A stretch of 61,529 nt of DNA, counting the filler, from Sphacelaria rigidula (lineage: Eukaryota), in the NCBI GenBank assembly GCA_964200075.2. It is 10 parts of 10 records of this genome, joined end to end, with 100 filler letters (N's around TTAATTAATTAA, not from the genome) between each part and the next. Parts side by side here need not be neighbours in the genome. Positions count along the whole stretch, not along the records: positions 30,818 to 36,880 come from CAXNAA020022483.1; 9 more parts are not named here. The stretch is one strand, 5' to 3'. Below are positions 1,901 through 61,529 of this stretch, in pieces. The notes under the pieces were generated by a model that worked only from the letters and a program-made list of their open reading frames with translations, was not told the DNA's origin and did not search any database. The translations under genes and the position numbers were made by a program. Position 1 is the first letter of the stretch. Each line of letters opens with the position of its first letter.

Positions 1901-2155
1901 TACCGCAAAACAAACGCAAGCGCAAATAAAACGGCAACCTGGTCGCCTAGCGTACGCAGTGAGTGGCACGCTTTACAGCATTGTTGCCAACCGACGCGAA
2001 CCCCATGGGGAGAAAAGGGAGGCGGGGCGCACTCATCTATTGCTCGCCTAATGGAGGGGGGGAGGGGGGGGGGGACGCCGGCACAACAAGGTGAATCGCC
2101 ACCGTGGAGAAATATGCCGACACGAGGAAAAAAGGCCTAAATTTCATCCCACTAA

Positions 2156-8051: not shown

Positions 8052-11000
8052 CAGTGTTGAAAATCGGGTATCGATACTCGATACGATTTCGACGATATCG
8101 GTCAATACGGCGTATCGGTATCGCCGCTTCCCAAGCTGATATTTGTCGATTTTGATATGGTCGATATATTTATTTGTTTATTTTACCGGGGGGTTGTGGA
8201 CAGCACATCGTGCCACCGCTCATCACCCCACTGCCCACCACCCCGCCACACACCACACACCACACAGCCACTCTCTGCGAACCACACCGCTCTGCAACAT
8301 GAGCCGCCTTCAAACGTTCGGCTTTGTGAAAGGCAGTAGCACAGAGTTTTGCAGTCGACGTTTCTGTCGAACCGTCTGTATCCGTGTCTGCTACGGTCGA
8401 CGTTTCTGTCGAACCATTTGTATCTGTGTCTGCTGCGGCTACTGCTGCTGCACCAGTGGCCGCCCCAGTACCCTCAACCAAGAGTGGCGAGAGCGGGCAA
8501 GCAGAGCTACCCACGAAGGTAGCGGATCCTTCAGACTTCCCATACAACCCATCCCTGCGAGCATTCTTGTCGGCGGGAGTGTTTCGCGTGTGAGGGTAGA
8601 CGATCATCTCATCTCATCATAATATCCAGTTTTTCCTACAAGCTTTAAAATGTCATTGATTGGCGTTTAGGTGTCTGGAGAGTATACTTCGTTGTGTAGC
8701 CGACAGTGAAAAAGTTGGACCTCTGCTGCCGACTTATCCCTTGTTTGGTATGGAGAACAGGAAAAGCGAGCGCGTATTTGCGTTCATCATGTTTGGCCCA
8801 GTTTCGACGTTTGGCGCGTTTGTTATTGAATAATGAGTGCGTTCGCAGTGCGCAGTGCGCAGTGCGCAGAGCCGAGGTAAATGCTCAAATTGATAGAAAC
8901 ATGACGGAATAGTCGGCGCGGAATATACTTCGGTATATCACCGGCTTGAACAACACACCATCTATGATGCATCACACCTCGAGTTGTGATCAACCACTTC
9001 TTTCGCGACTTGCCCCTCGCACGATGCATCATTTTTTTCAAACCGAAGCATCACGCCGCGTGTTGTGCCGCCACTTGTATGATGCCAGATAACAAATAAT
9101 GACAAATGACACACTGGTGCTGCTGTACCTTCATACAATCAGGCGTGCACCCACTCCGGGTTAGGTTGCTATTATACTGTCAGTGCAGTACCGAGAGGTC
9201 TTGCAAGCTGTGTCTCTACCAAAATAGCCGTATCAGATCATATAGAGTGCAAGGTTCCCCTTCGGGAGCTTGATACTGGCCTCCCGGGGGTGACGCAAGT
9301 CGAAAATATACCAGTGTTATTCCTTTTTCATATTATGGAGCCAATTGTGTCGGAGAATATGTACCTCCCAGTAGATACTCGTACTGTCACATTTCGTAGT
9401 TTCGAATGTCTCGGACCAAGAGTGGCGGGAAGAGCGGTGGACACTTTCAGCATGAAGAGCTCGCTTCACGGGCGGTGTGCGGAGGTGGAAAAGACACCAT
9501 CACCCACGAGACCCGTCACAGCACACATCGCAAGAGATTGCTACTGAAATAAGGTCGCGTCCCGGTGGTACGCGGCGAACTCGTGCAGGGTTCTCAAAAT
9601 GCCGGCCCGACCCCGCGCGCACGGATTTTAGATCACACTTGTATACAGTATACAGTATATGTATGATATTGCTTTCTGTCTGTGTGTACGTGGTGTATCA
9701 CCCCTCGCTCTGCCACATCTAGTACACCGGTCGGTGTTGCAGCAAGAGTAACAGGCCGCCTCTGCCGCTATCATTCCTGCCTGTATCTTGAGCGGATGGT
9801 AACACAGCCGCTATGACGCGCAAGCCGGTTGTAACAATTCAAACCGCGTGGAGATTTCTTCAGTCTTGAAGTAATACTGCGCGCAGTTGCCACTTTTGTA
9901 CGAGTATTGTGCACAGTACATGTTTTTAAGGTGTATACTGACTGTAGAAAGCTCTTGTCTAGGGTGTAATACATTTCCATACATATCAGGCGGTGAGATC
10001 GTGAAATAATTAAATATTCCACAGCACATGGCCGAAGTGGAAGTGAGGTAATCACCGCAATATTCGCGTGCAAAACCTGTGCGACCGTATTCTAAGTTGT
10101 TAACGCTAGAAGAACACCAGTGCAACGGCCATCCTGGCTGCCAGCCTGTGCACGGCCGTCCCGGTAGTGTTGGGACTGTCTGTGCCGGGATGTCGCCCCC
10201 AGTGCCAGGTACGCCGGCCAAGGTTCGCAGCACTACCCACTGGTCGCGCGACATGAGCTCAATCTTCGCCTGTCGAGATTTTTGAAGCGGAAATGTTCAG
10301 CTCCCAACCCTCACATATATAGCGGACCATAAACGATGCTTATTTGCTGGGTTTCTTCGAGCGTGCGTCCATAACTGGGCGAATATTGATGATGAGGCCG
10401 GCAGGATCCGTCGCAGCCTGCGTGATCACCTATCATTGCACCCACTCTATTCAGCCGTCATCAGACAGCAGGGTGTTGAATAAACAAAATGACACGCACC
10501 GTGGGTATCCACCGTATCAATGCACACCGGGCCATCAGCGACTTCCCCTGCTGCAGCTGTGACTGTGACCCCTTTCTCTAATACCAATCTACATATTCTT
10601 CAGTGTTCTTCACGATGCTTTTTTTGTGGACTGTTACGTTCGCATAATTGGGGCACATATTACGCAGATATGACCATGTTAGAGGCTTCACGTCAAAACT
10701 AAATGATAAGGGATCTCAGATCACTCGACTCGTGTTTGCTGCTGAATAAGTAAAGGCAATGTCCAGCTGTTTTAACTGCTCTGCTCTCATGTTCTCGTGA
10801 CATTCGCTGCATAACCACTGTCTTCGTGTTCCCAAATAATCGAGAATACAAACAAAATCACGGTGGAAAAAACCCCGCCATGAGCGGGGTTTTGTGGCCC
10901 TTGTTTGAAGTTCTCCACGATCTTGGAAAGGCTTTTAACACGGAATCTTACAAGTTGGAGATGAATCTTTTATTGGGGATGAGAAACCCGGAGAATTAAA

Positions 11001-11729
11001 ATCTTCGTATCCACACCAAATCTTCGAAATATGGTGCCATTTCATCACCTACCGATAGCTATTGACAACTGCTATACGCCATAGAAATGTGGATTTCGAT
11101 CACCAAATTGTTGGGGTCCCAGATGAAAAACCAATTTCGGAACGATTTTGACGTCCGTTCGGACACCCGGAATTCCCCAAAATTAGTTCTTCACCTAGGA
11201 CCCCAACATTTCGGCATTGAGATCCAAATTTGTATGGCGTGTAGCAGTTGTCAATAGCTATCAACAAGTAAAGAAATGGAACCATATTGCAAAGATTTGG
11301 TGTGGATACGAATATTTTAATTCTCCGGGTTTCTTATCCCCAATAAAAGATCCATTCCCAATTTGTAAGATCCCGTGTTTTTTGTGGTTCGGGATCGACA
11401 CCCCGCGGAAAAGAGCCAGTGTGGGCGACTTCCGATGGCAAGAACACGTGCAACACGTATCAGATGACACCCAAACCTGAACTGTAATGTACCGCTGACC
11501 CTCCCTCGTGCACTGCAAAAGAAAGCACGGGCTAAGATGCCTTGCAACCAGAGAACACGTGGCGAAAGTGGTGAAAAATACGAAGTGACACATATACACA
11601 TCAGCATCGAGTATCGATACGTATTGGGTCCTCTTCCGCGTTTAAAAAAATATATCGGTATCGACGTCTTGAGGTCGATACGTTGAGAATATCGTATCGA
11701 ACTTATTTTCCGTTCGAAATTCAACACTG
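8052..11729 (+). mobile_element. Non-autonomous hAT element (3.7 kb)
   Basis: TIR CAGTGTTGAA / TTCAACACTG; perfect 8-bp TSD GCACGCAG (8044-8051, 11730-11737); ATCGATAC-rich subterminal repeats at both ends; decayed Ala/Ser/Pro-rich N-terminal frame from ATG 8299 and weak BED-finger-like remnants (GVWRVYFVV*PTVKKLDLCC). Confidence 0.9.
10939..11377. mobile_element. Foldback/hairpin MITE nested in the hAT element
   Basis: ~200-bp imperfect inverted arms, termini CACGGAATCTTACAA / TTGTAAGATCCCGTG; no clear TSD. Confidence 0.8.
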
Positions 11730-18391: not shown

Positions 18392-18948
18392 NNNNNNNNN
18401 NNNNNNNNNNNNNNNNNNNNNNNNNNNNNNNNNNNTTAATTAATTAANNNNNNNNNNNNNNNNNNNNNNNNNNNNNNNNNNNNNNNNNNNNGTCTTATCG
18501 GGGGGGGGGGGGGGGGGGGGGGGGGGGTGGGGGGGGGGGGGGAGGGAGGGGTTCATCGTCCTGTCGCGTCGAGCATGGTTTCACGGGGTCCCGGTTGATG
18601 AGAATAGACGGCGTCGACGCTTGTTGTTCGCAACCGATGTTATCACCGTGCGTGGAACACCTACCTGCTCGTGCTCTCGAATTCGATGTAAGACAAAGCA
18701 CCATTCTGTGCACCAGAGGGAAGGGTTCGAAGGGGAGTATCCTAGTCGTTTTCGTGCCGGAATCTTGTGGCCTATCCATGTTGCGTTGAAACCGACTTTT
18801 TGATTAAGGGGGGGAAACACAAACCCGCAGCTGATCGATTCCAAGACACGAACATTGCTCGTCTTGGTCGTGCCTGACGGACCCCCCGCCACCCTGTCGG
18901 GCATGATCGAGGGTTTGTTCCTCGTGCTGGCGCAGCCCGAGGGGGGGG

Positions 18949-19014
18949 CGTACTCATTTGTTGCTTGCCTTAGTCATTTGACCATTGACCACGCATCCCT
19001 TTCGAGACGGAGCA
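18949..19014 (-). mobile_element. 66-nt poly(C)-tailed mini-retroelement (3' end of LINE family F1)
   Basis: Sense TGCTCCGTCTCGAAAGGGATGCGTGGTCAATGGTCAAATGACTAAGGCAAGCAACAAATGAGTACG+C-run; flanked by ~20-bp TSD GGCGCAGCCCG(A/G)GGGGGGGG (18929-18948, 19015-19034). Confidence 0.85.
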
Positions 19015-21489
19015 GGCGCAGCCCGGGGGGGGGGGGGGGTTATCGCATGACACGGGATCCGCGCGCTCCCACTTTTTATCCTATTGCGTAGAGTAACAAG
19101 AGTGCTCACCCCACTTACTTCTCTCCATTCCTCGACGTACTGAATATGACGCGTCACGGGTTCACCTCCACAGGTAACTTCTTCCGAATAAGAGCTTGTC
19201 CTCGGTACTTCTACTACAAAAAGTTCACAAGTCGGGTTGAACCTCATCTCGAAATTAAACCTCAATTCGCACAATTTGCTGTTATTTGGAGAAGGCACTC
19301 CTTGCCAGACACAACGCGATCGCAGCATGCAGCGGAGGTAGCGTGAACATATACCCAAACCCGACCCTTTGCTCTCATTCCCAACAAAGTATCTGGCAAT
19401 CGCCAAGCCTATCGTGTCATCACTGCGCACATACATGCCAGACAGCAAATCCTACCTTAAGTTGTCACAACACAGTAGCAGCCTTTTCCAACCAACCCGC
19501 CTTAATACCGGGTCAGCAGGGTGTACCGTTCTCTGGGAAACCCCAACTATTCAATATCGCCTCGCACGCAAGTACATACCAGGGAGGTTCCCCACCAACT
19601 ACAACCCATGGCCAAGTGGGTACTACTACGATCAGCAGCCCCCCTTCACCAGAGTCTCCACGAACGGAGATCATCGATTTTCTGCGCAACGCACAAACTT
19701 GCTTTCGACACGCCTTTGGGATAGAATGCAGACGCCCGCGGTGCCCCTGCATACACGAGGTGAATATCTTACCGAGGGGCTTTTACTCTCAGACATACTG
19801 ATCACAACCAGGAGGCGAGAAGCGCACACACCAAAGTGACGAATCAGAACAACCCAACAAAAAACCTCGCCGCATCACGCTGACCCCTGAGCAGCTCGAA
19901 ATGACTTCAGCTATTACCGGACTCGAATTTGAGAGCGACCATGAAGACGGAGCAGAGAACACCACTTGAAGGTGCGCCCCGGGTAGTACCTCACTCCCGG
20001 GGAACCTCAACGATGTGCCGTCACCGAAACCCTCCAGTAGTACGAGTCGAGCAGGAAGCGAGTCTAGCCACGTACCAACGGTCGAAGAAAGAGAAGAAGT
20101 TGCTGCGGCCGCCGAACGTATTGCCACAAACAAGAGTCGAAAAGCACAAGTTTGGGTACAGGCAAAGATCTGGCATCCCCATAAGTTGAGCATGCGACTT
20201 CCTGTCTCCGTCGTGTTGCACACGGGTGCTGGTGAGGGAACCTACGTGTCCGGTACTTCCTAGCAGTCGATTTGTAAGTGGGGAGAAATACCTAATCACA
20301 AACTAGATAAGAGAGGTGCAGGCGCGTTGAGGGCAGCAAACCCGGAGGAAAACAAGGTACCGCCGATGGAAATTCTAGGCTCCTCTACAATACCAGTCAT
20401 CTTTCCCCCAGAAGATAAAGTACGCAATATCGCAGTACGTTTGGTCCAGGGCTTTCCATACGCACCGGTACTGGGCGCTGCATTCTTCCGCAAACACTCA
20501 AGCGTCCTATCATTTGACAAATATCAAGGCTTCCGCCCCACGCCCGACGCACCATCGATACCGCTCCACACCCGTAGCTCGATACTCTCGCCAAATACTG
20601 AACCATCAAGTGCGACCCCGTTGGCTACGAAGACATTCGAGCATCAAATAATTCGGATAATATGTCTGATGTAGCCGAGGGGGCCACAACAGAAGCCAAA
20701 AGTGCCACAACAAATGGTACACCATCGGAATTGACCCCGTTATCAGCAGAAGGTAAACAAGCGTCGAATGATTCGAAGGTTACACCTGACGTAGCCGAGG
20801 TATTATGGGACACGTTCTGTTCTATCATACCCGGGGAAGAAGTTGAAGAACCAGAGCTGTACCGCCCGTCTAGACTAGAGGCCTTCAACCCCTCCATCGC
20901 AACGATCACAGACAGGATAGTGAGTAACAAATTCACGGGTAAGGCAGTTTGGGAAGACGACGGTACTCTGCAGCGGGCATTCTCCCTACTGTCGCCGCTA
21001 CGACTACCAGGCTTTGTCAGCACAGCAATAGGGGAACGCACCAAGGGTCCCCTCTCTCAAGTACGGCAACTGGTACTGATACTACCTACCGAGGATAACG
21101 ATTTAGAGAAAGGCGCGGTGCTAGGCGTAGCGAGAGGTATTCAGTGGTGGGAGCCAGGTACACCCGCAGTGTGCAAGGTAGTGAACAGGAGCCCCAACCA
21201 GAGCTTCACTGAGGCAAAAAAGCAGATAGCACAGACAGTGGCGGTCAATATCGATGACGAGGAACGCTTCCACGCGCTTTTCCTCCCATCTGACCCCGAA
21301 AGCAGCGAGGACAACACATCACACTATACACAAGCACAGACGCCACATGAAGACAACGAGGAAGGAAAAGATACGTACGAGAACACAATCATGTCCAGTC
21401 TCGATGACGCCAACCTCGGACAGCTCAGCACCCCTGAAAAATAAAAGCTTTTATCACTGTTATTTTCGCATTCCGTTGAGAGATGAACG

Positions 21490-25299: not shown

Positions 25300-26693
25300 T
25301 AGAGCTCGGTATTGGGTATTGGGTCTAAAATACATTGCCCCCAATACGCATAGGATATTTATCGTTCCTAAGCGTGTTTTTTGGCCCCTAACATGAAGAT
25401 TTTTGGCATATCTTATGCGAGAAAATATCCCCTAAAATTACCCAACATATCCGCATATTCTCGCATAGATATTCCAGATATGATATATCTTGCCCAAATA
25501 TATCCAATATACCCAATATATGTGGGATATAGACGTGGATATCACACGATATGTCTTCTTGAATACCAGAATCAGCCTCATTACGTTGTCTCCAGACCCC
25601 AGATCCCTGGTGCGCAAGTAACAGTGGTGTCACCGCACCCGTGCACACATAAGCAACCACTACACACTACACACCATACACCACACACCACACATGTGCG
25701 ATGAGCAACTCCCGGTCGACACCCCCAGCCAACAGCACTGCATCTGGACAACCAAGGGATGTCACCACCATCAGCGCCTCCGCTACTGCACCGCCGGCTA
25801 CTGTCACTGCTACCGTCACTGCCACCGCCACCGTCACTCCCAATGCGGCATCATCAGCCGCTTCACCGAGCACAGAGGGTCCTGCAGGCGGGACATTTGA
25901 GTTGGTCGATGAACGCAGTATAGTGGCAAAAATAAATAAATAACAACAACACCACCTGCCGTCCCTGGAAGGCGTGTCTTGTTTCTGCTTGTTTGCTCTG
26001 CTTGTTGGCGTTTGAGCGTTTGGGCGCGTCGTACCTCTAGGGCTGTCGTGTGTGCCTCTATGCAGTATGCCTGGCACGTGCATTACTGTATGCAGCTCAC
26101 TGATGAGGCACGTACCTCGTGAGTCGTTACACACACATCAATAACATAAGTATACCAGTGCCGCTGCGATCCGGTGGTGTAATGGTCCGATTGTCGCCAT
26201 TGGGGTGGGGAGAACGAGGGTTCGATTCCCGATGCGTTGGGTTTTTTCTTCGTAACGTCCGACTTCCACCGTGGAAAGCATGAGAACGTGAGTAAACAAA
26301 ATAGTCGACTGGGTTTGGGTGGCGTGAGTTGACGCGGTGCGGGGGAGTGCTGACCCAATCCGCGAGACCAAAATGGAAGGCACGTACCGGGGGAGAGATG
26401 GATTGATCCCTTGAGATCACAGACTCATCACGAAGAAGGGGGAGGGTTTAAAGTGCGAGGAAGAAAGAAAGAAAAAAAAACACCCTTAGAGTGAATCTGT
26501 ATAATCTGCACAAATCGTCCCTATATCCACAGATATCTGGAGGGATATCGGGTGCGATCTCAGATACGCATAGGAAAGTCCAAATATCCGAATATGATAT
26601 TTCTTATGCGATATTGCAGATATATGCGATATTTTTTCACCCAATATATCTATATCCTATTGGGGACAATTTCAGACCCAATACCGAGCTCTA
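25300..26693 (+). mobile_element. Non-autonomous hAT element (1.4 kb) containing a SINE B insertion
   Basis: TIR TAGAGCTCGGTATTGGGT / ACCCAATACCGAGCTCTA; perfect 8-bp TSD ACGAACAG (25292-25299, 26694-26701); ATATC-rich subterminal repeats; Ser/Thr/Ala-rich ORF 25701-25943. Confidence 0.92.
26160..26480 (+). mobile_element. tRNA-derived SINE, family B (A-rich tail)
   Basis: A box TGGTGTAATGG, B box GGGTTCGATTCCC, GAAA/poly-A tail; homologous to 27690-28003 and 40286-40673. Confidence 0.85.
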
Positions 26694-27689
26694 ACGAACA
26701 GCTTCCTACGTAGAACCGAACAGACCGACCGGTCGGAAAGATACTTCATGCCCGGGAAAAAAAAAAAATGGCACAGACGGGTCTAGAACGACGCATAACG
26801 CTGGCGGATTAGCTGTTCTACGCTTGCTCAACCGCAAGTGTATACTTTGGTGTATCGTCATCCTGACCTTATAATTACACTCTCCGTGGTGAATGCCCTT
26901 CTGTTTGTAAAGAATGTCATCCTCTACTCTAGGTCAGAGGACGTTTGATATCTCACTTTTCACGCCGGTCCGTTACTACTGTTTCGCTTTTGGTATTTCT
27001 CTGCGTGACATTGTTTGTTTTTGTGCGGCTTTATTCGATCCAGGGTCACGTACGGCCAGCAAGTGCAGTCGAGGTTTAAGACTGCACCGACACCTTGCTT
27101 CGGCAGCTCACAGCGGCCACCCATAAATGGAACCGGGACAGTGGTAAGTTATTTAATTTCGCGTACCCTGGACAACGACAGAAACGATTACGCTGTGAAA
27201 AAGTATACTGCGTACAGTATCGACTATTGCGTCTATAGAAAATAGGTTCCGTACCGTACGCAGTGCATTCTTTGACAATGCCGATTATTTTTCATCATCC
27301 AGGGTGTGAGGTTTAGCGATTCGAAGTTCCACGCACACCCGAACCAGGAGGTCTTTACAGAGGCCATAGCTCGATGACCGCAGCGATACGTAGGAGTGGA
27401 TGGACTTTTCCATGAAAAGCTCTCTGACGGAGCGGAGAATTTCAGTCTCGTAGCAGCGTGCTCCGGCTTGCTGATGCTCGGTGTCGAAGGCGAAATGTGC
27501 TCACGCGCTCATTCACTGCGCGTGCTGGGTGTAGATGTTGCGAGGGGCGAGATGTCTGGGATTGTACCTAGGTGCTGACGAATAAACAGGACCATGGCCT
27601 TGGTTAGCACGAGGTGTTGATGCACGTGTCAATTGCAAATATCAAAGGAATCCGTGAGCGACACGCTGACAGAAGCGCCCAGGTATGTA

Positions 27690-28003
27690 TTTTTTATTTT
27701 TTTCGCACTTTGAACCCCCTCCCTTCCTCGGGATGAAGCCGTGGACTCAAGGGGTTGACCCATCTCTCCCCGGTACACGCCTTGCATTTTGGTCTCGCGG
27801 ATTGGATCATGACTATCAGCATTTCCACACCGCATCAACTCACGTCAAACAAACTCGGTCAACTACTTTGCTTACTCATGTTCTCCCGCTTTCCACGGTG
27901 GTAACAATATATTACGAGGGAAAAAGCCAACGCATCGGGAATCGAACCCTCGTTCTCTCCACCGTAATGGCGTCGGCCGGGCCATTACACCACCAAGGCG
28001 CGG
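27690..28003 (-). mobile_element. SINE family B copy
   Basis: Reverse complement aligns with 26160-26480 over its length. Confidence 0.82.
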
Positions 28004-28422: not shown

Positions 28423-28497
28423 GGGGGGGGGGGGACTCATTTGTTGCTTGCCTTAGTCGTTTGATCGTTGACCATGCATCCCTCTCGAGGCGGAGCA
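28423..28497 (-). mobile_element. Poly(C)-tailed mini-retroelement copy (F1)
   Basis: G-run followed by ACTCATTTGTTGCTTGCCTTAGTCGTTTGATCGTTGACCATGCATCCCTCTCGAGGCGGAGCA; same 5' end as 18949-19014. Confidence 0.8.
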
Positions 28498-30371: not shown

Positions 30372-30717
30372 GTGGGGGTACTCATTTGTTGCTTGCCTTG
30401 GTCGTTTGATCATTGACCACGCATCCCTTTCAAGACGGATCACCGTTCCTACTCCTAATAGAGATACCTCCGACGCCTCCAACATTCTGGCGCTCATTAC
30501 GTTTCTTCCATACATTGCACAAAACCTTTTAATATATCTTATCCCCGTCCTGTTTCGCCGTCTCTGGCCATCATCTCTCTTTTAGTATAACCATCGTTTT
30601 CTCGCTACTGTCTAATGCATCAAACGATTTCATGCCCCCTTCGTTCACGTCCCGCATTTCCCTCTCTAGCACGTCCTGTTCCTCCTTGTATAGTTCACAT
30701 CTTGCAACTTTATGAAT
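30372..30717 (-). mobile_element. LINE family F1, 3' ~340 bp, cut by the contig end
   Basis: Minus frame RCELYKEEQDVLEREMRDVNEGGMKSFDALDS...LCNVWKKRNERQNVGGVGGISIRSRNGDPS*KGCVVNDQTTKASNK* then GTACCCCC. Confidence 0.85.
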
Positions 30718-30837: not shown

Positions 30838-31030
30838 CTTCGGGCCAAGCGCCGTGTTGTGTTCGGCGAGTGGCATGAAGGGTGAGCTGCATCCTGGTAA
30901 GATTGTTCGGCCCGAAGCCTACTTATTATCTTGCATTTGGATGACAGCCTGCAATGGGTTGCTTTATTCTGTGGTATCGCCACTCCCAGAGACAGCCATG
31001 GTTTTTACACTGCCTCATGGGTGTCTAGGG
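30838..31030 (-). mobile_element. Family F2 internal fragment
   Basis: Homologous to 32085-32240, 36070-36250 and 1640-1810. Confidence 0.65.
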
Positions 31031-32354
31031 GGAGGGGGGGGGGGGTGGTGGTGTGGAAACCAGCATAAAAAGGTGAAAGAAATCCCACAGGTGTCCGTCG
31101 AGCATTCACCACTTTTTCACATTTATCAAAACATCACCGTGACATACCTACCGCAAAAAAATTAACGCCTGGATCGTACAGTGTTTCGCGAGTTTGATCT
31201 CTAGGTATATTCACTACATAATTCTATGTCTGCCGTTGTGCTTATTTACCACAGGTCTTGATTGATGTTTTTTTCTCTCCTTTTTTTTAAAATCAAGACA
31301 AGTCTACGTCCTGTGTATTGTAGTACGTCTTCTGTCAGCGACTTGTGTGTTGTGAGAAGGTTCATGTGCGGCGCACTAGCATTAGTTTTCTCGTGAGCTA
31401 TCCCGCCGTTTCGATATGTAATTACATTTTGGGTAAACGGTGTACAGTACTGATTCGCCTTTTTTTGTTTTGCGGTGAACAACTTGCGGTGAACAGCTTG
31501 CGGTGAACAACAGAACGCATACAACGTGGTTGTTCTACATCAACCAGCAGGTATTGTGATTGCTCCGCTGACAGGACGGGACAAGGGTGGAGTACGAAAG
31601 AGAGAGAGGGTAGTGGAACGAAGTAGCGTTCAAAGGACAGTCTCCAGAGGGAAGGGCTGGTGAAGTCACGGTACTACGGAGTATAACTCATGCGAGAAAA
31701 CAACACGTTGCACGTGTCTGCGGAAATGTCCAAGGTTGTGTTCTGCATGGTACGGTTTTTTGCATACCCAGGGTATGCACCCGGGTATTTTCCCGTACCC
31801 GAGAGCTCTGTGAGTTCTGTAAGCCTCCCACACCGGTGGTACCCGACAGTTCTACGCAATCTGTACGCCATGTTAACCCTTGCCCGGGGTACGGGTATAC
31901 TCGTGTAGAATCCCCCGGTTGCAGGTGAGGGTTTCTATACAATCGTCACGAGTATACCGTAACCGACATGTGCTGTACGTTCTGTAAGAAGTTTTATACC
32001 CTACCGAACACACCCGTACCCCACAAAACACAGCCTATGATGAGTCAACGCGTTGGTACTGGATGGATTGCTCCCGCCCCCCACTGTCACCCATGAGACA
32101 ATGTCCAAGCCGTGGCTGTCTCTGGAACTGGCGATACCAGACAATAAAGCAACTCATTGGATGCTGTCCTCCGAATGCAAGATAATCAGTACGCTTTGGG
32201 CCGGTCAATCTTAGCAGGATGCAGCTCATCCTTCATGCTTCGCGCAGGGTGATTGATTGCGAGCCTGGTCCGGCGAAGACCCGGCGTGCTCCGTCCCGGC
32301 TTTGTAGGNNNNNNNNNNCTTTGTAGGGATGTGAGGTCAATGGTCATATGACTA

Positions 32355-33568
32355 CGAGCCGGGCCAGCTTAAAAGCAGCCAAATGTTGTCCACACTACAG
32401 CTTTCCCAGTTTCCCGAATGAACCCGATGTAAGCATATCACTGTGAAGTACAGACCAACCTGGTATCACACGGCACCGCCGCTGAGTGAAGGAAAAAAAT
32501 GAAGAAAAAGAAATGTACGACGAGCTAGGCCAGCCAGGAGTAGGTGTGAATCTCGCTCAGGCGACGCACGGTGCGATATTAGGATTTGGACGCCGAAGTT
32601 TTGACAGCAGCTTTTTATGATCGAAATGCAGAAGATCACGTGAGCAGCGAAGAAAAAATAAAAAATAAAAAAAGAAGTTATGGGCATTTGAAATTTCAGC
32701 GAAAAAAGATAATGTCGTAAGTCCAGGAAAAAAAGGAGAATCTGCAACTGGACACGGGAAGTATCAGTTCCTTGGGTGTAGAAGGTCTACCCGGAATTTC
32801 AGCTCAAGAGTCGTCGAATTGGGGCGTGCGTTCAACATTTTCCGTGACGCTGCTGCATCCCTATAAATCAAGTGATGGGGGACTCCAATCATGGAGGTCA
32901 TGAGTTCGAATCCCGACAGATTCTTTTTTTTTTCGTCCGTCGTTAATGTCATACATTATGCCGTACATTTTTTTTTCACTTTTTTCTTCATTCAGCGGCA
33001 GTGCCGTGTGTTGCCAGGTTGGTCTACGCTTCACAGTGATTCGTTTACATCGCGTTCATTCGGGAAACTGGGAAAGCTGTGGTTTGAACAAGTTGTAGCC
33101 GCTTTTAATCTGGCCCAGCTCGTACCATCATAGTTGACCTTGACGACGGCCGAAAAAAGAAGAGAATATGTCGGGATTCGAACTTATGACCTTCATAATT
33201 GGAGTATCTTACCACTTGAACTACAGGGGTGCAGCAGCGTCACGCAAACCGTTGTACGCACGGCCCAATCCAACGACTCTTGAGATGAAATTTCACGAAG
33301 AGCCTCTGCACCCGAGGAAATTATACATCACGGGAGCAGCTGCAGATTCTCGTTTGTTCCCTGGACTTGATACATTATCTGGTTTTTGCTGAAATTTCAA
33401 ATCCCCATAAATTCCTCTTCTTTTTTTTTCTGTTCTTCTTCGCTGCTCTCATTGTATTCTTCATGTCGATCGTAACAAGCTGCTGTCAAAGTTTCAGCGT
33501 CCACTCCTAATTTTACACTGTGCGTCGCCTGAGCGAGAAAACTACCCACTGTTGGTTGGCCCAGCTCG
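32355..33568. mobile_element. Tc1/mariner-type MITE (outer copy)
   Basis: TIR CGAGC(C/T)GGGCCA; TA duplicated at 32353-32354 and 33569-33570. Confidence 0.85.
32521..33122. mobile_element. Same MITE family, ~600-bp inner copy in opposite orientation
   Basis: CGAGCTAGGCCA ... TGGCCCAGCTCG|TA; 32549-32950 is an inverted homologue of 33135-33540, and 32960-33122 of 32355-32520. Confidence 0.85.
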
Positions 33569-33609
33569 TATGGCATGCAAGATCATGAGAACCCCCCCGC
33601 ACCCCATAT

Positions 33610-33686
33610 CGACCACGCGTCTCTTTCGAGACGCGTGGTCGATGATCAAAAGACCAAGGCAAGCAAGAAGTGAGTACGCTCCCCCG
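33610..33686 (+). mobile_element. F1 mini-copy with a foldback at its 5' junction
   Basis: TCGACCACGCGTCTC TTTC GAGACGCGTGGTCGA then TGATCAAAAGACCAAGGCAAGCAAGAAGTGAGTACGCTCCCCC. Confidence 0.65.
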
Positions 33687-34278: not shown

Positions 34279-35024
34279 GTAGGTCATTTTTTTTCTGTGG
34301 TTGGTAAAAAGAAGGAAAAATATCAAGATTCTAAAATGAAAATAAAAAACAAGGAAAAGAGACATATAAGAACAAGAAAACACAAAAAAACAAGGACAAA
34401 AACAAGAGGTTCGACATTTTTTCTTACTTCTACTTTATTTGTTGTTCTGTTGGTTTATTTTCTTTCGCTTTTTTTTTTTCATCATCATCAGGGTGGTAGG
34501 CAAGGGAAATGGAACAAATTTAGAGAAGAAACAATAATCATGATAACTGGATAGCAGACGTAAACCCTCGATGCCCTTGGCATCTTGTGTAGAAATTATT
34601 TGACGAATAAGAAAATGTGGGGTAATGTGGCTTCTGGGGACATTTTTTTTTTCTAGTATATTCTGTTCGCCTGTTGTGCTTTTCTGGGTTTTCTCCCTCC
34701 TTTTCTTCAGCGAGTGTTTTAGTTTTGTTTTTTGGTCTCGGGTGTTAGACTGTGACAACCAGGTGGATATTGCCGAAGAAGAGTGTCCCACCTGTCACAG
34801 CGGGTGTGGCTCTACCGTCCAAGAGGACTCGTTCGGCACATCATTTTCATCCGGCGACTTGTGCACGCACTTTCTGACTACAGGTCGGAAAAAAATAAAG
34901 GGCGTGCGCATTTTTTCGACAGACCTGTAGAATGAAACGTCAACGTTTGAGCTAATTGTTCATTGCCTTATCGATGTCAAATATATCGTATATAGTAGTC
35001 ATCCCCCGCCCCCCCCTTCTCCAC

Positions 35025-35101
35025 GGTGCTCCGTCTCGAAGGGATGCGTGGTCAATGGTCAAACGACTAGGGCAAGCAAAAAATTAGTACGCACCCCCCC
35101 C
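35025..35101 (+). mobile_element. F1 mini-copy inserted in a C-run
   Basis: GGTGCTCCGTCTCGAAGGGATGCGTGG...AGTACGCACCCCCCC; imperfect TSD (C)n..TCCAC on both sides. Confidence 0.75.
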
Positions 35102-35109
35102 ATCCACAA

Positions 35110-35850
35110 TTGTTAGCCGTAGTTGATAGGGCCGTACGGAAAAAAGTGACGAAAGGGCAGGCTGGAGTAAGCTGGGATGGCGTAGTCGAGAAAGTGTGGA
35201 AAGAGATGAGGGGAAACCAAGACGAGATAAGGTCCATAGGTGAACGTGGTGGGTATCAGACAACATAAGGAGACATTATAAAAATAAGGGAAAAATAAGC
35301 ACGAAAACGGATAGTAGAGGAGGAAGAGCACCTGAAGATATACGGCGGGTTGAGAGGTGGGATAGGAATGAAGACATATCTGCATGGTCCAATGGACTCC
35401 GCAAAAAAAATGAAACTGCGGTTTCGGGTGGGAGACCGGGACCTGCCTGAAAGAAGGAATAGGTATACCAGTAGTCGACTGGAGGAGGAAGTAGATTTCC
35501 GGAATCGCCCCTGTGGCATAGGAATAGAGAGTAGAGCTCATACAATATATGAACTATACAAGGAGGAGCAGGACGTGTTGGAAGGAGAAATGTGGGAAGT
35601 AAACGAAGGTGGCATGAAGACGTTCGATGCATTAGACAGTAGGGAGAAAACGATGGTCATACAAGGAGATAGATGATGGCCACAGACGGCGAATCAGGAA
35701 GAGGATAAGATGTCCCCATGAGGAGCAGGAATGGTGCTCCGTCTCGAAAGGGATGCGTAATCAACGGTCAAACGACTAAGGCAAGCAACACACGAGTACC
35801 CCCGCACCCCCCCCCCCCCCCCCCCCCCCCCCCCACCCCCCCCCACCCCG
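35110..35850 (+). mobile_element. LINE family F1 (RTE/RTEX-like) 3' ~700 bp with poly(C) tail; degenerate ORF2 C-terminus
   Basis: AVVDRAVRKKVTKGQAGVSWDGVVEKVWKE...YLHGPMDSAKKMKLRFRVGDRDLPERRNRY...RPCGIGIESRAH (decayed Cys/His motif)...RSRNGAPSRKGCVINGQTTKASN then a long C-run. Confidence 0.8.
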
Positions 35851-35975
35851 GCCCCCCGGCCCCGGCNNNNNNNNNNGGGGCCCCCGTCCAGAAGGGGGGG
35901 AAAAAACAACGCCAAAACCACAAAGGAAAACACCCCCCGCCCCCCCCCCCCCCCCCCCCCCCGCCCTCCGCGCGC

Positions 35976-36045
35976 ACCGTCTCGAAAGGGATGCGTGGTC
36001 AATGGTTAAACGACTGAGGCAAGCAACAAATGAGAGCGCCCCCCT
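35976..36045 (+). mobile_element. F1 mini-copy downstream of a C-run
   Basis: CCGTCTCGAAAGGGATGCGTGGTCAATGGTTAAACGACTGAGGCAAGCAACAAATGAGAGCGCCCCCC. Confidence 0.8.
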
Positions 36046-36069
36046 ATGCGCGCACAGTTCAAATTGTGA

Positions 36070-36376
36070 GGCACCCATGAGGCGGTTCAACCCGTGGTCA
36101 TTGCTGGAAGTACAGAGATACCAGAAAAAAGCTAAGCAACTCTTTAGAGGCTGTCATCTATATGCAGGATAGTTGGTGCGCTTCCCGCCGAACAATCTCA
36201 GCAGGATGCAGCTTGCCCTTGCGTGCGACTAGTCGGACACATCACGGCGCTTCGCGCTCGATGAGCGCGACGAGCCTGGTCCAGCGAAAACCCGGCGTGC
36301 TCCGTCCCAACTTTGTAGGTATGCGAGGTCAATGGTCTTGTGACTACGGCATACAGAATCATGAGTACGCCCCCAC
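36070..36376 (+). mobile_element. Family F2 copy
   Basis: Ends ATGCGAGGTCAATGGTCTTGTGACTACGGCATACAGAATCATGAGTACGCCCCC. Confidence 0.8.
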
Positions 36377-39300: not shown

Positions 39301-40285
39301 CGCCTCGTAGTCGATGACCAAACAAATTTGTCCCACTTCGGCACCGCCATCGCCGGACGCGCCCACACAGCCTAAATTTTCTTAACCAACGAACCAAACG
39401 CCACCAAAGCTGCGATGCATGAGGCAAGCCAAACGGTCTTCAACGGATCGTAGCGACGAGGTATGGCCTTCTCAGCCTCTCTCATTGGCTCTACGCGTGC
39501 TGGCGGATCACCACGCAGCATACGACGAAATGTTTCCACACGACGAGCCAAAATATCACGCAGACGATATGCGCCATCGGCGCTCAGGTCCTTCTGCTCG
39601 GCCTGCTGCACGCTATCCTGTAGCGCACGTTCTGTGGCACCTCTTTCCTCCGCGTCCATAAGCATGTCGCCCCCCCGATCGATCAAGCGCTTCATCGCTG
39701 CATCCGCAGGAACCTCCTCCCCATTGGCTCTTTGGAATGACCGTATGGATACGATCACACGCCTCGTAGCAAGGTAGCTGGGGTTTTCCACGCCGGTTTG
39801 CACCGGCACAGCCCGCGGACGTAACTTATCCAACGCCAGCGGATACGAATCAATCCCAAGCTCCTTCATCGTCGCCATCCCAAACAGAACCACGTGGTCC
39901 CTGGCGGGCATGATAGCGAAAGTGATGGGCTGCAACTCCACAGCCCTCCATGGCGTACGCACGCTAACAGCAATCGGTATCGTTTCATGTATAACCGTCA
40001 CGGGAGTACCCGTGGCGGTCTGTGCCGTTTGCGGTCCATTTTCGAACGGAATCTGCAGCTGAGCGCCGCGGAACTGCGAAGACATTATTCCAGCAACCCC
40101 GCACCGATCGACGTGAGCGCGGACCCAGAATCCATAATAAGGCGGGCCATGAACGAACCTCCGGAACGAGGCAAGGAAAGATCTGCGCGTAAGCATTCTG
40201 CGTTGCGATCGACAGTCACCACACCTGCCGAAGAACCCTGATCAGTACCAAGAGTAACCTGACGCCAGGGCTGCGCTCCAGTACT

Positions 40286-40673
40286 TCTTTTTTTTCCTCA
40301 CACTTTGAACCCCTCCCCATCCTCAGCATGAGTCCGTGGTCTCAAGGGATCAACCCATCTCTCCCCCGGTACGTGCCTGCTCCGTCTCGAAAGGGATGCA
40401 TGGTCAATGTCAAATGACTAAGGCAAGCAACAAATGAGTACGCCCCCCCGGTACGTGCCTTTCATTTTCGTCTCGAGGATTGGGTCAGCACTTCCGCTCC
40501 GCGTCAACTCACGTCACGCAACCCCAGTCGACTACTTTGTTTACTCAAGTTCTCACGCTTTCCACGGTGGAAATCATGCATTACGAAGAAAACCCCGACG
40601 CATCGAGAATCGAACCCCCGTTCTCTCCACCGTAATGGCGACAGTCAGACCATTACGCCACCGGGGCGCGGCG
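40286..40673 (-). mobile_element. SINE family B inserted in the Gypsy gag-protease linker
   Basis: tRNA-like head at the 40673 end, T-run (A tail) at the 40286 end, TSD AGTACT (40280-40285, 40674-40679). Confidence 0.88.
40379..40444 (+). mobile_element. F1 mini-retroelement nested inside SINE B
   Basis: Flanked by 16-bp TSD CCCCCGGTACGTGCCT (40363-40378, 40445-40460); other SINE B copies carry the site once. Confidence 0.9.
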
Positions 40674-45329: not shown

Positions 45330-47075
45330 CTTTCCAACCGAACGAATCCATCGTCGAAGTTACAAAAAGCCGCCTATTCCCGAAATCATATTTCCAGGAT
45401 CAATGCAAGTACTGATGGATTCCTGGAAGTTCGCTGGGCTGGTCTGGTTGGAAAGCTAAACACGTGATTTTGTCCCGACGGGTAAGAATTGAACAATATT
45501 ATAGTCCGGATACATTGAACGATGTGTCTTACATGTAAAATGCGGGGGGGAAGATGGCACGGCTTTTCGATCTGAAAATAACAGCAGATCCTAGACCCAC
45601 GAAAAGTTCTGTCGTGCCCAATACACCCAGAGCTGATGATCCTCCCATCATGATGGGATCTACATACACATCTCGCCACGTACGGTCGTGATGTTGGATG
45701 GTTATTCGTAAATTTTTGCATTTGCAAGAGCTGGCACGAAACAGTGCAGGTTAACGTCGTCGAATAAATCCAGAATTGACTAGCCTGCGACTATCAGCTG
45801 TATCCACAAGCATTCCGTCATTTACTGTGGAACGGAAAAATCAACCTCAGTGTAGCGACCAAATTTCGCTTCGATCTAATGTGTACCGAACGAGCACATG
45901 CCACCTCTATTCGGTTCCCACATTTTCCCCTCTGACACGTCCCGTTCCTCCTCGTATAGTTCGTGGCAGGGGGTGGGGGGGGGAAGACGAAGAGGTACTC
46001 CGCCATCTATTGTATTGCTGCTAGTGCTACAGACAGCATCCTTTTATTTTCTGAATATTGGACACTACCTACTCACATCAAAGCTTCTCCCTCCTTCTTC
46101 GACTGCCGTAAGGGTCCACGAACTCGATCCGCTCACATACACTTCCCTGATTATTTCACCGCGTTCTTGCATATGTACACAGGTTCGCTCCAGATTCAAC
46201 CGCAGCACAGTGCTCCGCCTTACTTGGGACAACGAAGGGAATATGGACGCCAGCCGAGCGGAGGTAAGGCTCGTTCGTGGCAATCAAATGCGCACACGCA
46301 GTATTGGGGTGGCAGGGCAAGATCCTCATGAATCAGAAAGAAGTACTCAATCACATGGTCGCCCAAAAAAGTAGGGGAGGTGACGTACGACAAGGAGCCG
46401 GTGGTCCAGGGTCTGAAAATTCCAGCCCCATCAAAGAAACACGCTGGAGGAGTAGTATGGATGGCGGTACTTTCTGCCACGTACCTCGAGCATTTTCCCG
46501 CATCATCAGGGTATCGTTTTGTATAGCATTCGTGTGTGACTCTTAACAGAGGCGGTCCATCTCTCCCTCCGTTAAAATCCCAATAAGTTCTTTCAGACAT
46601 TGCCGCGTCCGTTGGCTGGCCCGAGTGGCTGATCAGTTGATTTGATGACTGTCACTGATCCGCTACGAATCCCGGCGTGTAAATTCACAAGACGCACGTA
46701 CCGCAGGGCAGTAGGTCGCAAAAACAATCCTGCTGAAGGAGAAGTCGCGAGCAGGGACAAGAGTTGAAAATATGAACAAACGGAGGGACCAAAGCGAGGA
46801 AAACTGACACCCACCAGGCTAAGAGCCATGATACCGATTCGAAGAACAGTCCTGACAGCCGCATGCCGGGAGAGCAGACCGGAAGAAGTTATTGGAACCC
46901 AGCTACCTGAAGACCGCACTGCTGGGCAGGTATTCGCAGCCGCTAACTCTACAGAACGAAGATGTACACCGATAATGCTACCGTACGCTCCGAGCAACAA
47001 GGAAATGGGACAAATGGGGCTCAAAAATGATCACAGGCCAATTACCGCGCGCAGATATCGGAACATTTGTTTAAG

Positions 47076-61469: not shown

Positions 61470-61529
61470 TGGGGGGGTGTACTTATGATCATGCATGCCA
61501 TAGTCATCAGACCATTGACCTCGCATCCC
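61470..61529 (-). mobile_element. Family F2 3' end with C-tail, cut by the window end
   Basis: Reverse complement GGGATGCGAGGTCAATGGTCTGATGACTATGGCATGCATGATCATAAGTACACCCCCCC. Confidence 0.8.

What the first reader, a model, noticed from the sequence alone, without database searches (positions are those of the whole stretch)
35110..35850. LINE that ends in poly(C) and appears to target C/G homopolymer runs
Seen: the ORF2-like frame ends ...KGCVVNGQTTKASNK-TGA, and about 5 nt later (GTACG) every copy runs into C's, never A's. There are eight copies across four unlinked contigs (18949, 28423, 30372, 33610, 35025, 35110, 35976, 40379). Two have clean TSDs (16 and ~20 bp) whose tail-side end is a C-run. 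Known: non-LTR elements use target-primed reverse transcription and typically end in poly(A) or A-rich tandem repeats; RTE/RTEX-type elements can prime through tail-target pairing. Inference: this family primes from a nicked G-run paired to a C-tailed RNA. I am not aware of a described poly(C)-tailed, homopolymer-targeting LINE, but cannot check the literature. The RTEX-like call rests only on the LRFRVG..L....RY and decayed Cys/His motifs.
Basis: partly seen in the sequence, partly recalled or inferred. Interest (0 to 1): 0.8.

Follow-up and report, generated by a model that had tools for sequence, protein, structure and literature searches.

The report
C-tailed seaweed jumping gene, already catalogued
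This is a real, very abundant copy-and-paste element that ends in a run of C's and lands in C-runs, but the same behaviour is already noted for its relatives in the model brown seaweed Ectocarpus.

Summary
35102-35799 is a decayed, 5'-truncated copy of a single-ORF LINE (APE endonuclease plus RT). 2,416 of 3,195 exact 3' ends in the genome run into CCCC; at most 2 loci go straight to an A-run. A run of 5 or more C lies just 5' of 39 of 57 copies (background 2.5%), and TSDs begin with C's. Short target runs gain C's at the 3' end (12 of 14) and long ones do not (0 of 8), which fits a C-rich RNA end pairing with a nicked G-run. The property is not new: the supplement of the Ectocarpus TE paper (PMC12477816) lists RTEX-1/-2 as '(C)n 3'' with 'C-rich' TSDs, and this family groups with Ectocarpus proteins (100/100). 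Not found in my searches: (i) about 60% of sampled copies are only 57-72 nt; (ii) a 3' hairpin shared with a ~560-bp non-autonomous partner and with AT-tailed sister LINEs, with compensatory changes; (iii) copies stacking in each other's C tails. Whether the RNA carries the C's was not tested.

The parts
35102..35799 (+). 5'-truncated, decayed LINE copy (family F1): C-terminal ~260 codons of the EN-RT ORF, with stops and a 57-bp deletion near 35711
   Evidence: tblastn to the full-length relative P0003, aa 1102-1314 at 58% and aa 1334-1359 at 85%; blastn to an intact copy L162
35734..35799 (+). Conserved ~66-nt 3' domain: overlaps the last ~20 codons, holds the bulged hairpin (about 35755-35787), and starts where most short copies start
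35800..35866 (+). C-rich tail plus downstream TSD copy (35803-35814); runs into an N gap, length unreliable
35090..35101 (+). Upstream copy of the 12-bp C-rich duplication, which is also the tail of the preceding mini copy (the inferred target)
35023..35091 (+). 69-nt mini copy of F1, inserted after a C-rich run
35974..36043 (+). Mini copy of F1 with C6 tail and a degenerate TSD, after a C23 run
36057..36368 (+). 5'-truncated copy of the non-autonomous partner F2, C-tailed, fourth member of the cluster
18929..19034 (-). 66-nt mini copy (18949-19014) between 20-bp C-led TSDs with one mismatch
28423..28497 (-). Mini copy with C12 tail, no clean TSD
30372..30715 (-). ~340-nt F1 copy cut by the contig end, C/CA-rich tail
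33608..33685 (+). Mini copy whose 5' end is a perfect fold-back (16-bp arms), lying just after an F2 3' end (33569-33592)
40363..40459 (+). 65-nt mini copy (40378-40442) between 15-16-bp TSDs; target C5, tail side C7
1344..2010 (-). Two head-to-tail F2 copies (1509-2010 near full length; 1344-1480 truncated)
30844..31026 (-). Internal F2 fragment after a C12 run
32090..32354 (+). F2 fragment spanning an N gap
61478..61529 (-). F2 3' end with C tail, at the window edge
45881..45962 (-). Internal F1 fragment beside a G9 run

Best explanation
A brown-algal RTE-X-type LINE of about 5.5-6 kb with one EN-RT ORF that ends 5 nt before the element's 3' end. It inserts by target-primed reverse transcription. 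The protein binds a structured ~65-nt RNA domain at the 3' end ('stringent' recognition; inferred from sharing with a non-coding partner). The G-rich strand is nicked in or at a G-run. The freed G's pair with C's at the end of the template, which are most simply the donor copy's own genomic C-run transcribed by read-through. Second-strand nicking about 10-20 nt away gives a TSD that starts with C's. Each insertion doubles the C-run and so creates new targets. SHOWN: anatomy, C tail, C-rich empty sites, TSDs, extra 3' C's at short targets, the shared 3' end, clustering. INFERRED: nick position, RNA-DNA pairing, source of the C's, protein binding to the hairpin.
For: Near-full-length decayed copies spanning EN, RT and the C-terminus exist in the genome; of 8 long loci where the ORF end is present, 7 are followed by C-rich tails. 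Relatives P0003/P0004 have PF03372 + PF00078 in one ORF and the same last residues. Tail: 2,416 of 3,195; the 10 nt after 142 F1 ends are 78% C. Target: C5+ within 25 nt upstream of the 5' junction in 39 of 57 usable copies (14 of 71 dropped for contig end or gap), against 2.5% background; G5+ in 2 of 57. TSD in 24 of 57 against 18 of 453 in shuffled flanks. In those 24 the 3' run has more C's than the target in 13 (3 doubtful), equal in 3, fewer in 8; gains in 12 of 14 targets with 7 or fewer C, 0 of 8 with 11 or more. Four of four clade members from other assemblies (L161, L162, L164, L165) end in C-runs. Hairpin: 94% of cells paired, 2 pairs with two-sided changes, 0 of 500 shuffles reach the covariation score. 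Same-strand family pieces start within 70 nt downstream in 11 of 69 copies, against 2 on the opposite strand. Precedent for tail-target concordance in RTE LINEs: PMC6007223 (passages).
Against: No RNA 3' end was seen. 33 of 57 copies gave no strict TSD, and 3 of the 24 (L064, L084, L094) are probably chance. C-runs mutate in length after insertion, which blurs the tail-versus-target comparison. Single copies of the 3' domain do not fold better than shuffles (z from +0.9 to -1.1 for 7 F1 copies, -2.0 and -0.6 for 2 F2 copies). The two-sided changes come from only two related sister sequences, the region is also protein-coding, and the shuffle control ignores relatedness. The 71 copies are the first-listed matches on the longest contigs, selected by an exact 24-mer, and I skipped matches near contig starts when fetching 40 of them.
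Confidence: 0.78

Rival explanations
1. No C's in the template. The element ends at its last unique base, the endonuclease alone picks G-runs, and the 'tail' is only the TSD.
For: In 11 of 24 TSD copies the 3' run is equal to or shorter than the target run. Empty sites are strongly C-rich.
Against: 12 of 14 short targets gained C's, some by 10 or more (3 to 13, 3 to 14, 7 to 22). The window copy at 40378 has target C5 and tail side C7.
Confidence: 0.1
2. A true post-transcriptional poly(C) tail, or C's added without template or by slippage of the RT, as the counterpart of L1's poly(A).
For: A few pure long tails exist (over 70 C in L007). Gains at short targets need a source of C's.
Against: Most tails are 5-15 nt and often interrupted, as expected from copied genomic C-rich tracts or later decay. 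The long runs may be assembly artefacts. I know of no nuclear poly(C) tailing of such RNAs (recalled, not searched).
Confidence: 0.08
3. The C-runs are sequencing or gap-filling artefacts of a fragmented short-read assembly.
For: The tract at 35807-35866 and several other long C/G runs touch N gaps or contig ends.
Against: The C's follow the element's sense strand in both orientations, sit inside TSD-bounded internal copies, recur in four other assemblies and in contigs of runs from three coded organisms, and are annotated in a near-gapless Ectocarpus assembly.
Confidence: 0.02
4. The 57-72-nt copies are a separate, self-propagating mini-family rather than repeated truncations of LINE RNA.
For: Only 466 of 2,721 exact core matches keep the upstream 5-mer 5-9 nt away. 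Head-to-tail units of 70-83 nt occur.
Against: Their 5' starts scatter over about 10 nt and abut different TSDs. No head or promoter sequence was seen. Their sequence is the LINE's own end.
Confidence: 0.25

Closest known systems
RTEX-1_Ec32 and RTEX-2_Ec32 (RTE-X LINEs of Ectocarpus sp. 7; Dinatale et al. 2025, PMC12477816)
   Same: Single EN-RT ORF, (C)n 3' end, C-rich TSD, 5.5-5.9 kb (supplement rows). Ectocarpus-labelled proteins are up to 59% identical over the query and form one 100/100 clade with this family. The same C-terminal VVNG motif is present.
   Different: A different host genome (244 Mb) and a separate subclade from the Ectocarpus-labelled proteins. Copies here are old (long copies 78-80% identical pairwise), whereas the paper says most Ectocarpus TE families are recent. 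The consensus FASTA was unreadable, so there is no direct DNA comparison.
RTEX-N1_Ec32 (~600-bp non-autonomous partner)
   Same: F2 is about 560 bp, shares the last ~60-70 nt and a 40-nt 5' motif with the LINE, has C-rich ends and occurs in tandem. The supplement says the same of N1: 60-bp 3' end 83% alike, weak 5' homology to RTEX-2, can be tandem.
   Different: Orthology not tested. F2 starts with a ~46-nt repeat of a stretch near its own 3' end, which those rows do not mention.
RTE-clade LINEs and their SINEs (PMC6007223) and green-algal RTEX (PMC3747384, Table 3)
   Same: The 3' simple repeat matches the first bases of the TSD; tail-target pairing is proposed; LINE and SINE share a structured 3' end ('stringent' type).
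   Different: The tails listed there are A/T-containing repeats such as (GTT)n, (CAA)n, (CA)n and (CCAT)n; none in the passages seen is a C homopolymer. The upstream T-stretch signature was not tested here.
Mammalian L1 (poly(A) tail, T-run primer; recalled, and PMC3747384 passages)
   Same: Homopolymer tail paired to a complementary homopolymer primer; APE endonuclease plus RT (E about 1e-20 to L1 ORF2p).
   Different: C/G rather than A/T; apparently stringent 3' recognition; no 3' UTR to speak of; one ORF; the tail is probably genome-encoded.

Membership tests
APE-type non-LTR retrotransposon (LINE) | RT domain preceded by an APE-type endonuclease | tested here: met
   PF00078 in own-genome L025; PF03372 + PF00078 in P0003/P0004; own-genome copies span P0003 aa 1-1360 with many stops
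APE-type non-LTR retrotransposon (LINE) | 5' truncation, fixed 3' end, simple-sequence tail, variable-length TSD, no LTR | tested here: met
RTE-X (RTEX) clade | Placement of the RT with reference RTEX elements | tested here: inconclusive
   The tree groups it 100/100 with Ectocarpus proteins, but no labelled RTEX reference was available. The link is indirect: the curated Ectocarpus LINEs are RTEX ((C)n), RTE ((CAA)n) and CRE ((CA)n). The paper's own notes cite best blastp hits.
RTE-X (RTEX) clade | ORF1 with esterase, seen in some RTEX (PMC3905857) | not tested
   About 1.9 kb upstream of the ORF holds a 63-bp array; it was not scanned for a decayed ORF1. Ectocarpus RTEX is described as single-ORF.
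Ectocarpus-type C-tailed RTEX (RTEX-1/-2_Ec32) | (C)n 3' end | tested here: met
   2,416 of 3,195
Ectocarpus-type C-tailed RTEX (RTEX-1/-2_Ec32) | C-rich TSD | tested here: met
   24 of 57 strict TSDs against a 4% null; C5+ upstream in 39 of 57
Ectocarpus-type C-tailed RTEX (RTEX-1/-2_Ec32) | Single EN-RT ORF, 5.5-5.9 kb, with a ~600-bp non-autonomous partner sharing the 3' end | tested here: met
   ORF 4.1 kb plus about 1.7-1.9 kb of 5' region, array length varying; F2 about 560 bp
Ectocarpus-type C-tailed RTEX (RTEX-1/-2_Ec32) | DNA identity to the published consensus | not testable with these tools
   The supplementary .fa files cannot be read
Stringent-type LINE/SINE pair | Shared 3' sequence forming a conserved stem-loop | tested here: met
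   Same stems with variable loops in F1, F2, L164, L163 and L166; covariation rests on few lineages
Stringent-type LINE/SINE pair | 3' region required for retrotransposition | not testable with these tools
   Needs an assay
Ribozyme-processed LINE (HDV-like, hammerhead, twister) | Match to a known self-cleaving ribozyme at the element's 5' end or at the short-copy start | tested here: not met
   No Rfam match near a gathering score in 16 loci; by eye no HDV P3/L3/P4 order

The most novel reading that the evidence does not exclude
The brown-algal lineage swapped the AT-rich tail of its sister LINEs for C and retargeted to G-runs while keeping the same 3' RNA hairpin. Its main product is a ~65-nt minimal insert whose 5' edge is set by that protein-bound RNA domain (the remnant left after 5' decay or cleavage). 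Tail-primer pairing alone would then set the target, and thousands of these micro-inserts would be a main source of the C/G runs in these genomes.
Probability: 0.3. Interest if true: 0.6.

Novelty: new member of a known kind. Interest (0 to 1): 0.33.

Why it matters
As a catalogue entry it is ordinary: C-tailed RTE-X elements are the largest LINE group in Ectocarpus (3.4% of that genome). It still has use. It is a clean natural test of whether tail-target pairing or the endonuclease chooses LINE sites, because sister elements with the same 3' hairpin end in AT-rich repeats. A ~65-nt cis element that suffices for insertion would be a very small handle for RNA-templated DNA writing. Inserts this short may slip under repeat-annotation thresholds, and many matches lie at contig ends in this assembly.

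Tried and rejected
A DNA search of the genome with the 66-nt end found nothing because common words are skipped; exact patterns were used instead. Expression: no RNA holder listed on record; the runs laid are contigs, with RNA only guessed, so they cannot show an RNA 3' end. Ribozyme at the short-copy start or the 5' end: no Rfam support. A 5' H-type pseudoknot shared by F1 and F2: 92% paired but no covariation (216 of 500 shuffles as high), so unsupported. A terminal helix closing the whole 3' domain appears in some folds only, and an upstream hairpin competes for the same bases. The whole-domain alignment A3 misaligned the F2 stems and was not counted. The idea that the domain edge always sets the 5' end is weakened by F2, which shows no step at the equivalent base and has other start clusters. 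Earlier scan findings: none. Literature: searches showed no paper on a poly(C)-tailed or homopolymer-targeting LINE other than the Ectocarpus supplement; one search showed none on such a truncation hotspot; only listings were read for these. Repbase, Dfam and subscription journals were not searchable. No family consensus was used; natural copies served as references.

Full report
1. Observation. The window is a string of ~6-kb contigs from a 244-Mb, 27,214-contig eukaryotic assembly. The copy at the finding spans about 35102-35799, matches aa 1102-1359 of a full-length relative with a 57-bp deletion, and has lost its own stop codon. It sits in the C8 tail of a mini copy and carries a 12-bp C-rich duplication. 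With a further mini copy and a partner element it forms a four-member cluster at 35023-36368.

2. Tail. An exact 24-mer of the 3' end has 3,195 matches, and 2,416 have CCCC at +4..+7, evenly on both strands. A6 within 12 nt gives 33 rows at about 20 loci, nearly all after a C-run; 2 loci lack one. Flanks diverge after the C's. Both sequence-based refutations (common downstream sequence, poly(A)) fail.

3. Target. I examined 71 matches in 70 loci: the first 30 listed, then 40 of the next listed, skipping those near contig starts. 14 were dropped for contig end or gap. Of 57, 39 have C5 or more within 25 nt upstream of the 5' junction (background 2.5%); G5 occurs in 2, A5 in 1, T5 in 1. A strict TSD was found in 24, against 18 of 453 in shuffled flanks; 3 of the 24 look like chance. 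The 3' run has more C's than the target in 13, equal in 3, fewer in 8. Gains occur at 12 of 14 targets with up to 7 C and at 0 of 8 with 11 or more. So the run pre-exists, the nick can fall inside it, and extra C's arrive with the insert.

4. The element. Near-full-length decayed copies cover EN, RT and the C-terminus. The 5' region has a conserved start after a C-rich tract and a 63-bp tandem array of 4-11 units, giving about 5.5-6 kb. Relatives P0003 and P0004 carry APE and RT domains in one ORF and end in the same residues. The ORF stops 5 nt before the C's. Long copies are 78-80% identical to each other, so they are old; no intact ORF was among the 34 candidates scored. The brown-algal host is inferred from Ectocarpus-labelled homologues, not shown.

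5. Relatives. In an RT tree of 72 rows, own-genome copies, L161, L162, L164 and the Ectocarpus-labelled proteins form a 100/100 clade. Its sister group, joined at 100/99, includes L163 and L166 (midpoint root, no labelled clade references, L165 too short to include). L161, L162, L164 and L165 end in C-runs; L163 and L166 end in AT-rich repeats. The C tail is therefore a trait of this clade; direction of change is not tested.

6. Partner and 3' RNA domain. A second family, F2 (about 560 bp; 1,707 exact 25-mer matches), shares the last ~65 nt and a 40-nt 5' motif, has C tails (75% C over 64 ends) and forms tandems. A bulged hairpin is kept in F1, F2, L164 and the AT-tailed sisters. The most variable positions within both families lie in its loop. 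Over 14 sequences 94% of cells pair, 2 pairs change on both sides, and 0 of 500 shuffles reach the covariation score. Against this: the two-sided changes come from two related sequences, the region is also coding, and single copies fold no better than shuffles.

7. Short copies. 34 of 57 sampled copies are 57-72 nt. Genome-wide, only 466 of 2,721 exact core matches keep the 5-mer that lies 5-9 nt upstream in long copies; mutation and contig ends explain part of the loss, and exact matching favours young copies. Contigs from runs of three coded organisms show loose ends at the same 6-nt window with C-rich sequence before it, C-rich and otherwise mixed sequence after the tail, and head-to-tail units of 70-83 nt (X19 may be this genome's own sample; RNA status is a guess). 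The cause is unexplained. No known ribozyme matches, and F2 has different start clusters.

8. Mechanism. The best model is TPRT in which a nicked G-run pairs with C's at the template's end, most simply the donor's transcribed genomic run, with the 3' hairpin as the binding site (0.78). Rivals: target-only C's (0.10), a true added poly(C) (0.08), artefact (0.02). Insertion doubles the run, and same-strand neighbours follow 11 of 69 copies against 2 on the opposite strand (3 of the 11 come from one cluster).

9. What is known. PMC12477816 (seen: passages, section 5 part 1, supplement file 1 part 1 of 3, a search of 5 supplement files) lists RTEX-1a_Ec32 as 'single EN-RT ORF; (C)n 3'', RTEX-2_Ec32 as '(C)n termini/TSD', and TSD 'C-rich' for all six RTE-X rows, including the ~600-bp RTEX-N1. 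Its two FASTA supplements were unreadable and bear on exact family identity. PMC6007223 (passages) reports tail-TSD concordance in RTE elements and proposes pairing. PMC3747384 (passages) describes stringent 3' recognition and lists green-algal RTEX tails. PMC3905857 and PMC11203168 (passages) place RTEX beside RTE. Searches (listings only) showed no analysis of C-run targeting or of such short inserts.

10. Verdict. Real and well supported; works like RTE-type tail-primed TPRT with C/G in place of A/T; a new member of a kind already catalogued in Ectocarpus; formal RTE-X membership is likely but was tested only indirectly. Interest 0.33. The short-insert hotspot and the tail swap between sister lineages are the parts worth following.

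Noticed in passing
window 33610-33645: The 5' end of a mini copy is a perfect palindrome (16-bp arms, 4-nt loop) made from the element's own first hairpin, which suggests cDNA fold-back during insertion.
   Followed up: no
L151:961-1013 and 1434-1479; L146; L071: Full-length F2 begins with a ~46-nt direct repeat of the stretch 50-100 nt from its own 3' end; many truncated F2 copies also start there. In all three loci F2 directly follows an F1 mini copy.
   Followed up: partly
L228:529-1046 (minus strand numbering), L216:5238-5619, L225, L229-L231, L236, L237: The LINE's 5' region holds a 63-bp tandem array of 4-11 units, a possible internal promoter or enhancer.
   Followed up: partly
L105:19-58, L217:6-45, L225:3961-4000, window 1959-1998: A 40-nt motif near the 5' end is shared by F1 and F2 and could form a pseudoknot, but shows no covariation. 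Several LINE 5' ends directly follow another copy's C tail.
   Followed up: yes
L036 and L038, 5' junctions: Extra bases resembling a TTAGGG telomere repeat lie between the TSD and the element start.
   Followed up: no
L163:3100-3170, L166:2085-2150; P0016, P0017, P0024: Sister LINEs at about 40% protein identity keep the same 3' hairpin and C-terminal VNG motif but end in TTA/TTTA-type repeats; hosts unknown.
   Followed up: partly
window 32702-33385, 10937-11379, 26173-27994: Long inverted-repeat elements (170-232-nt arms), probably MITE-like; other dispersed repeats at 27690-28003 and 40285-40671.
   Followed up: no
G000, first 100 matches: Many matches lie within ~100 nt of a contig start, so these elements and their C/G runs probably break the assembly.
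   Followed up: no
P0007, P0013, P0026, P0029: Some Ectocarpus gene models fuse this LINE's RT with unrelated domains (ABC transporter, ankyrin), probably annotation artefacts from intronic copies.
   Followed up: no
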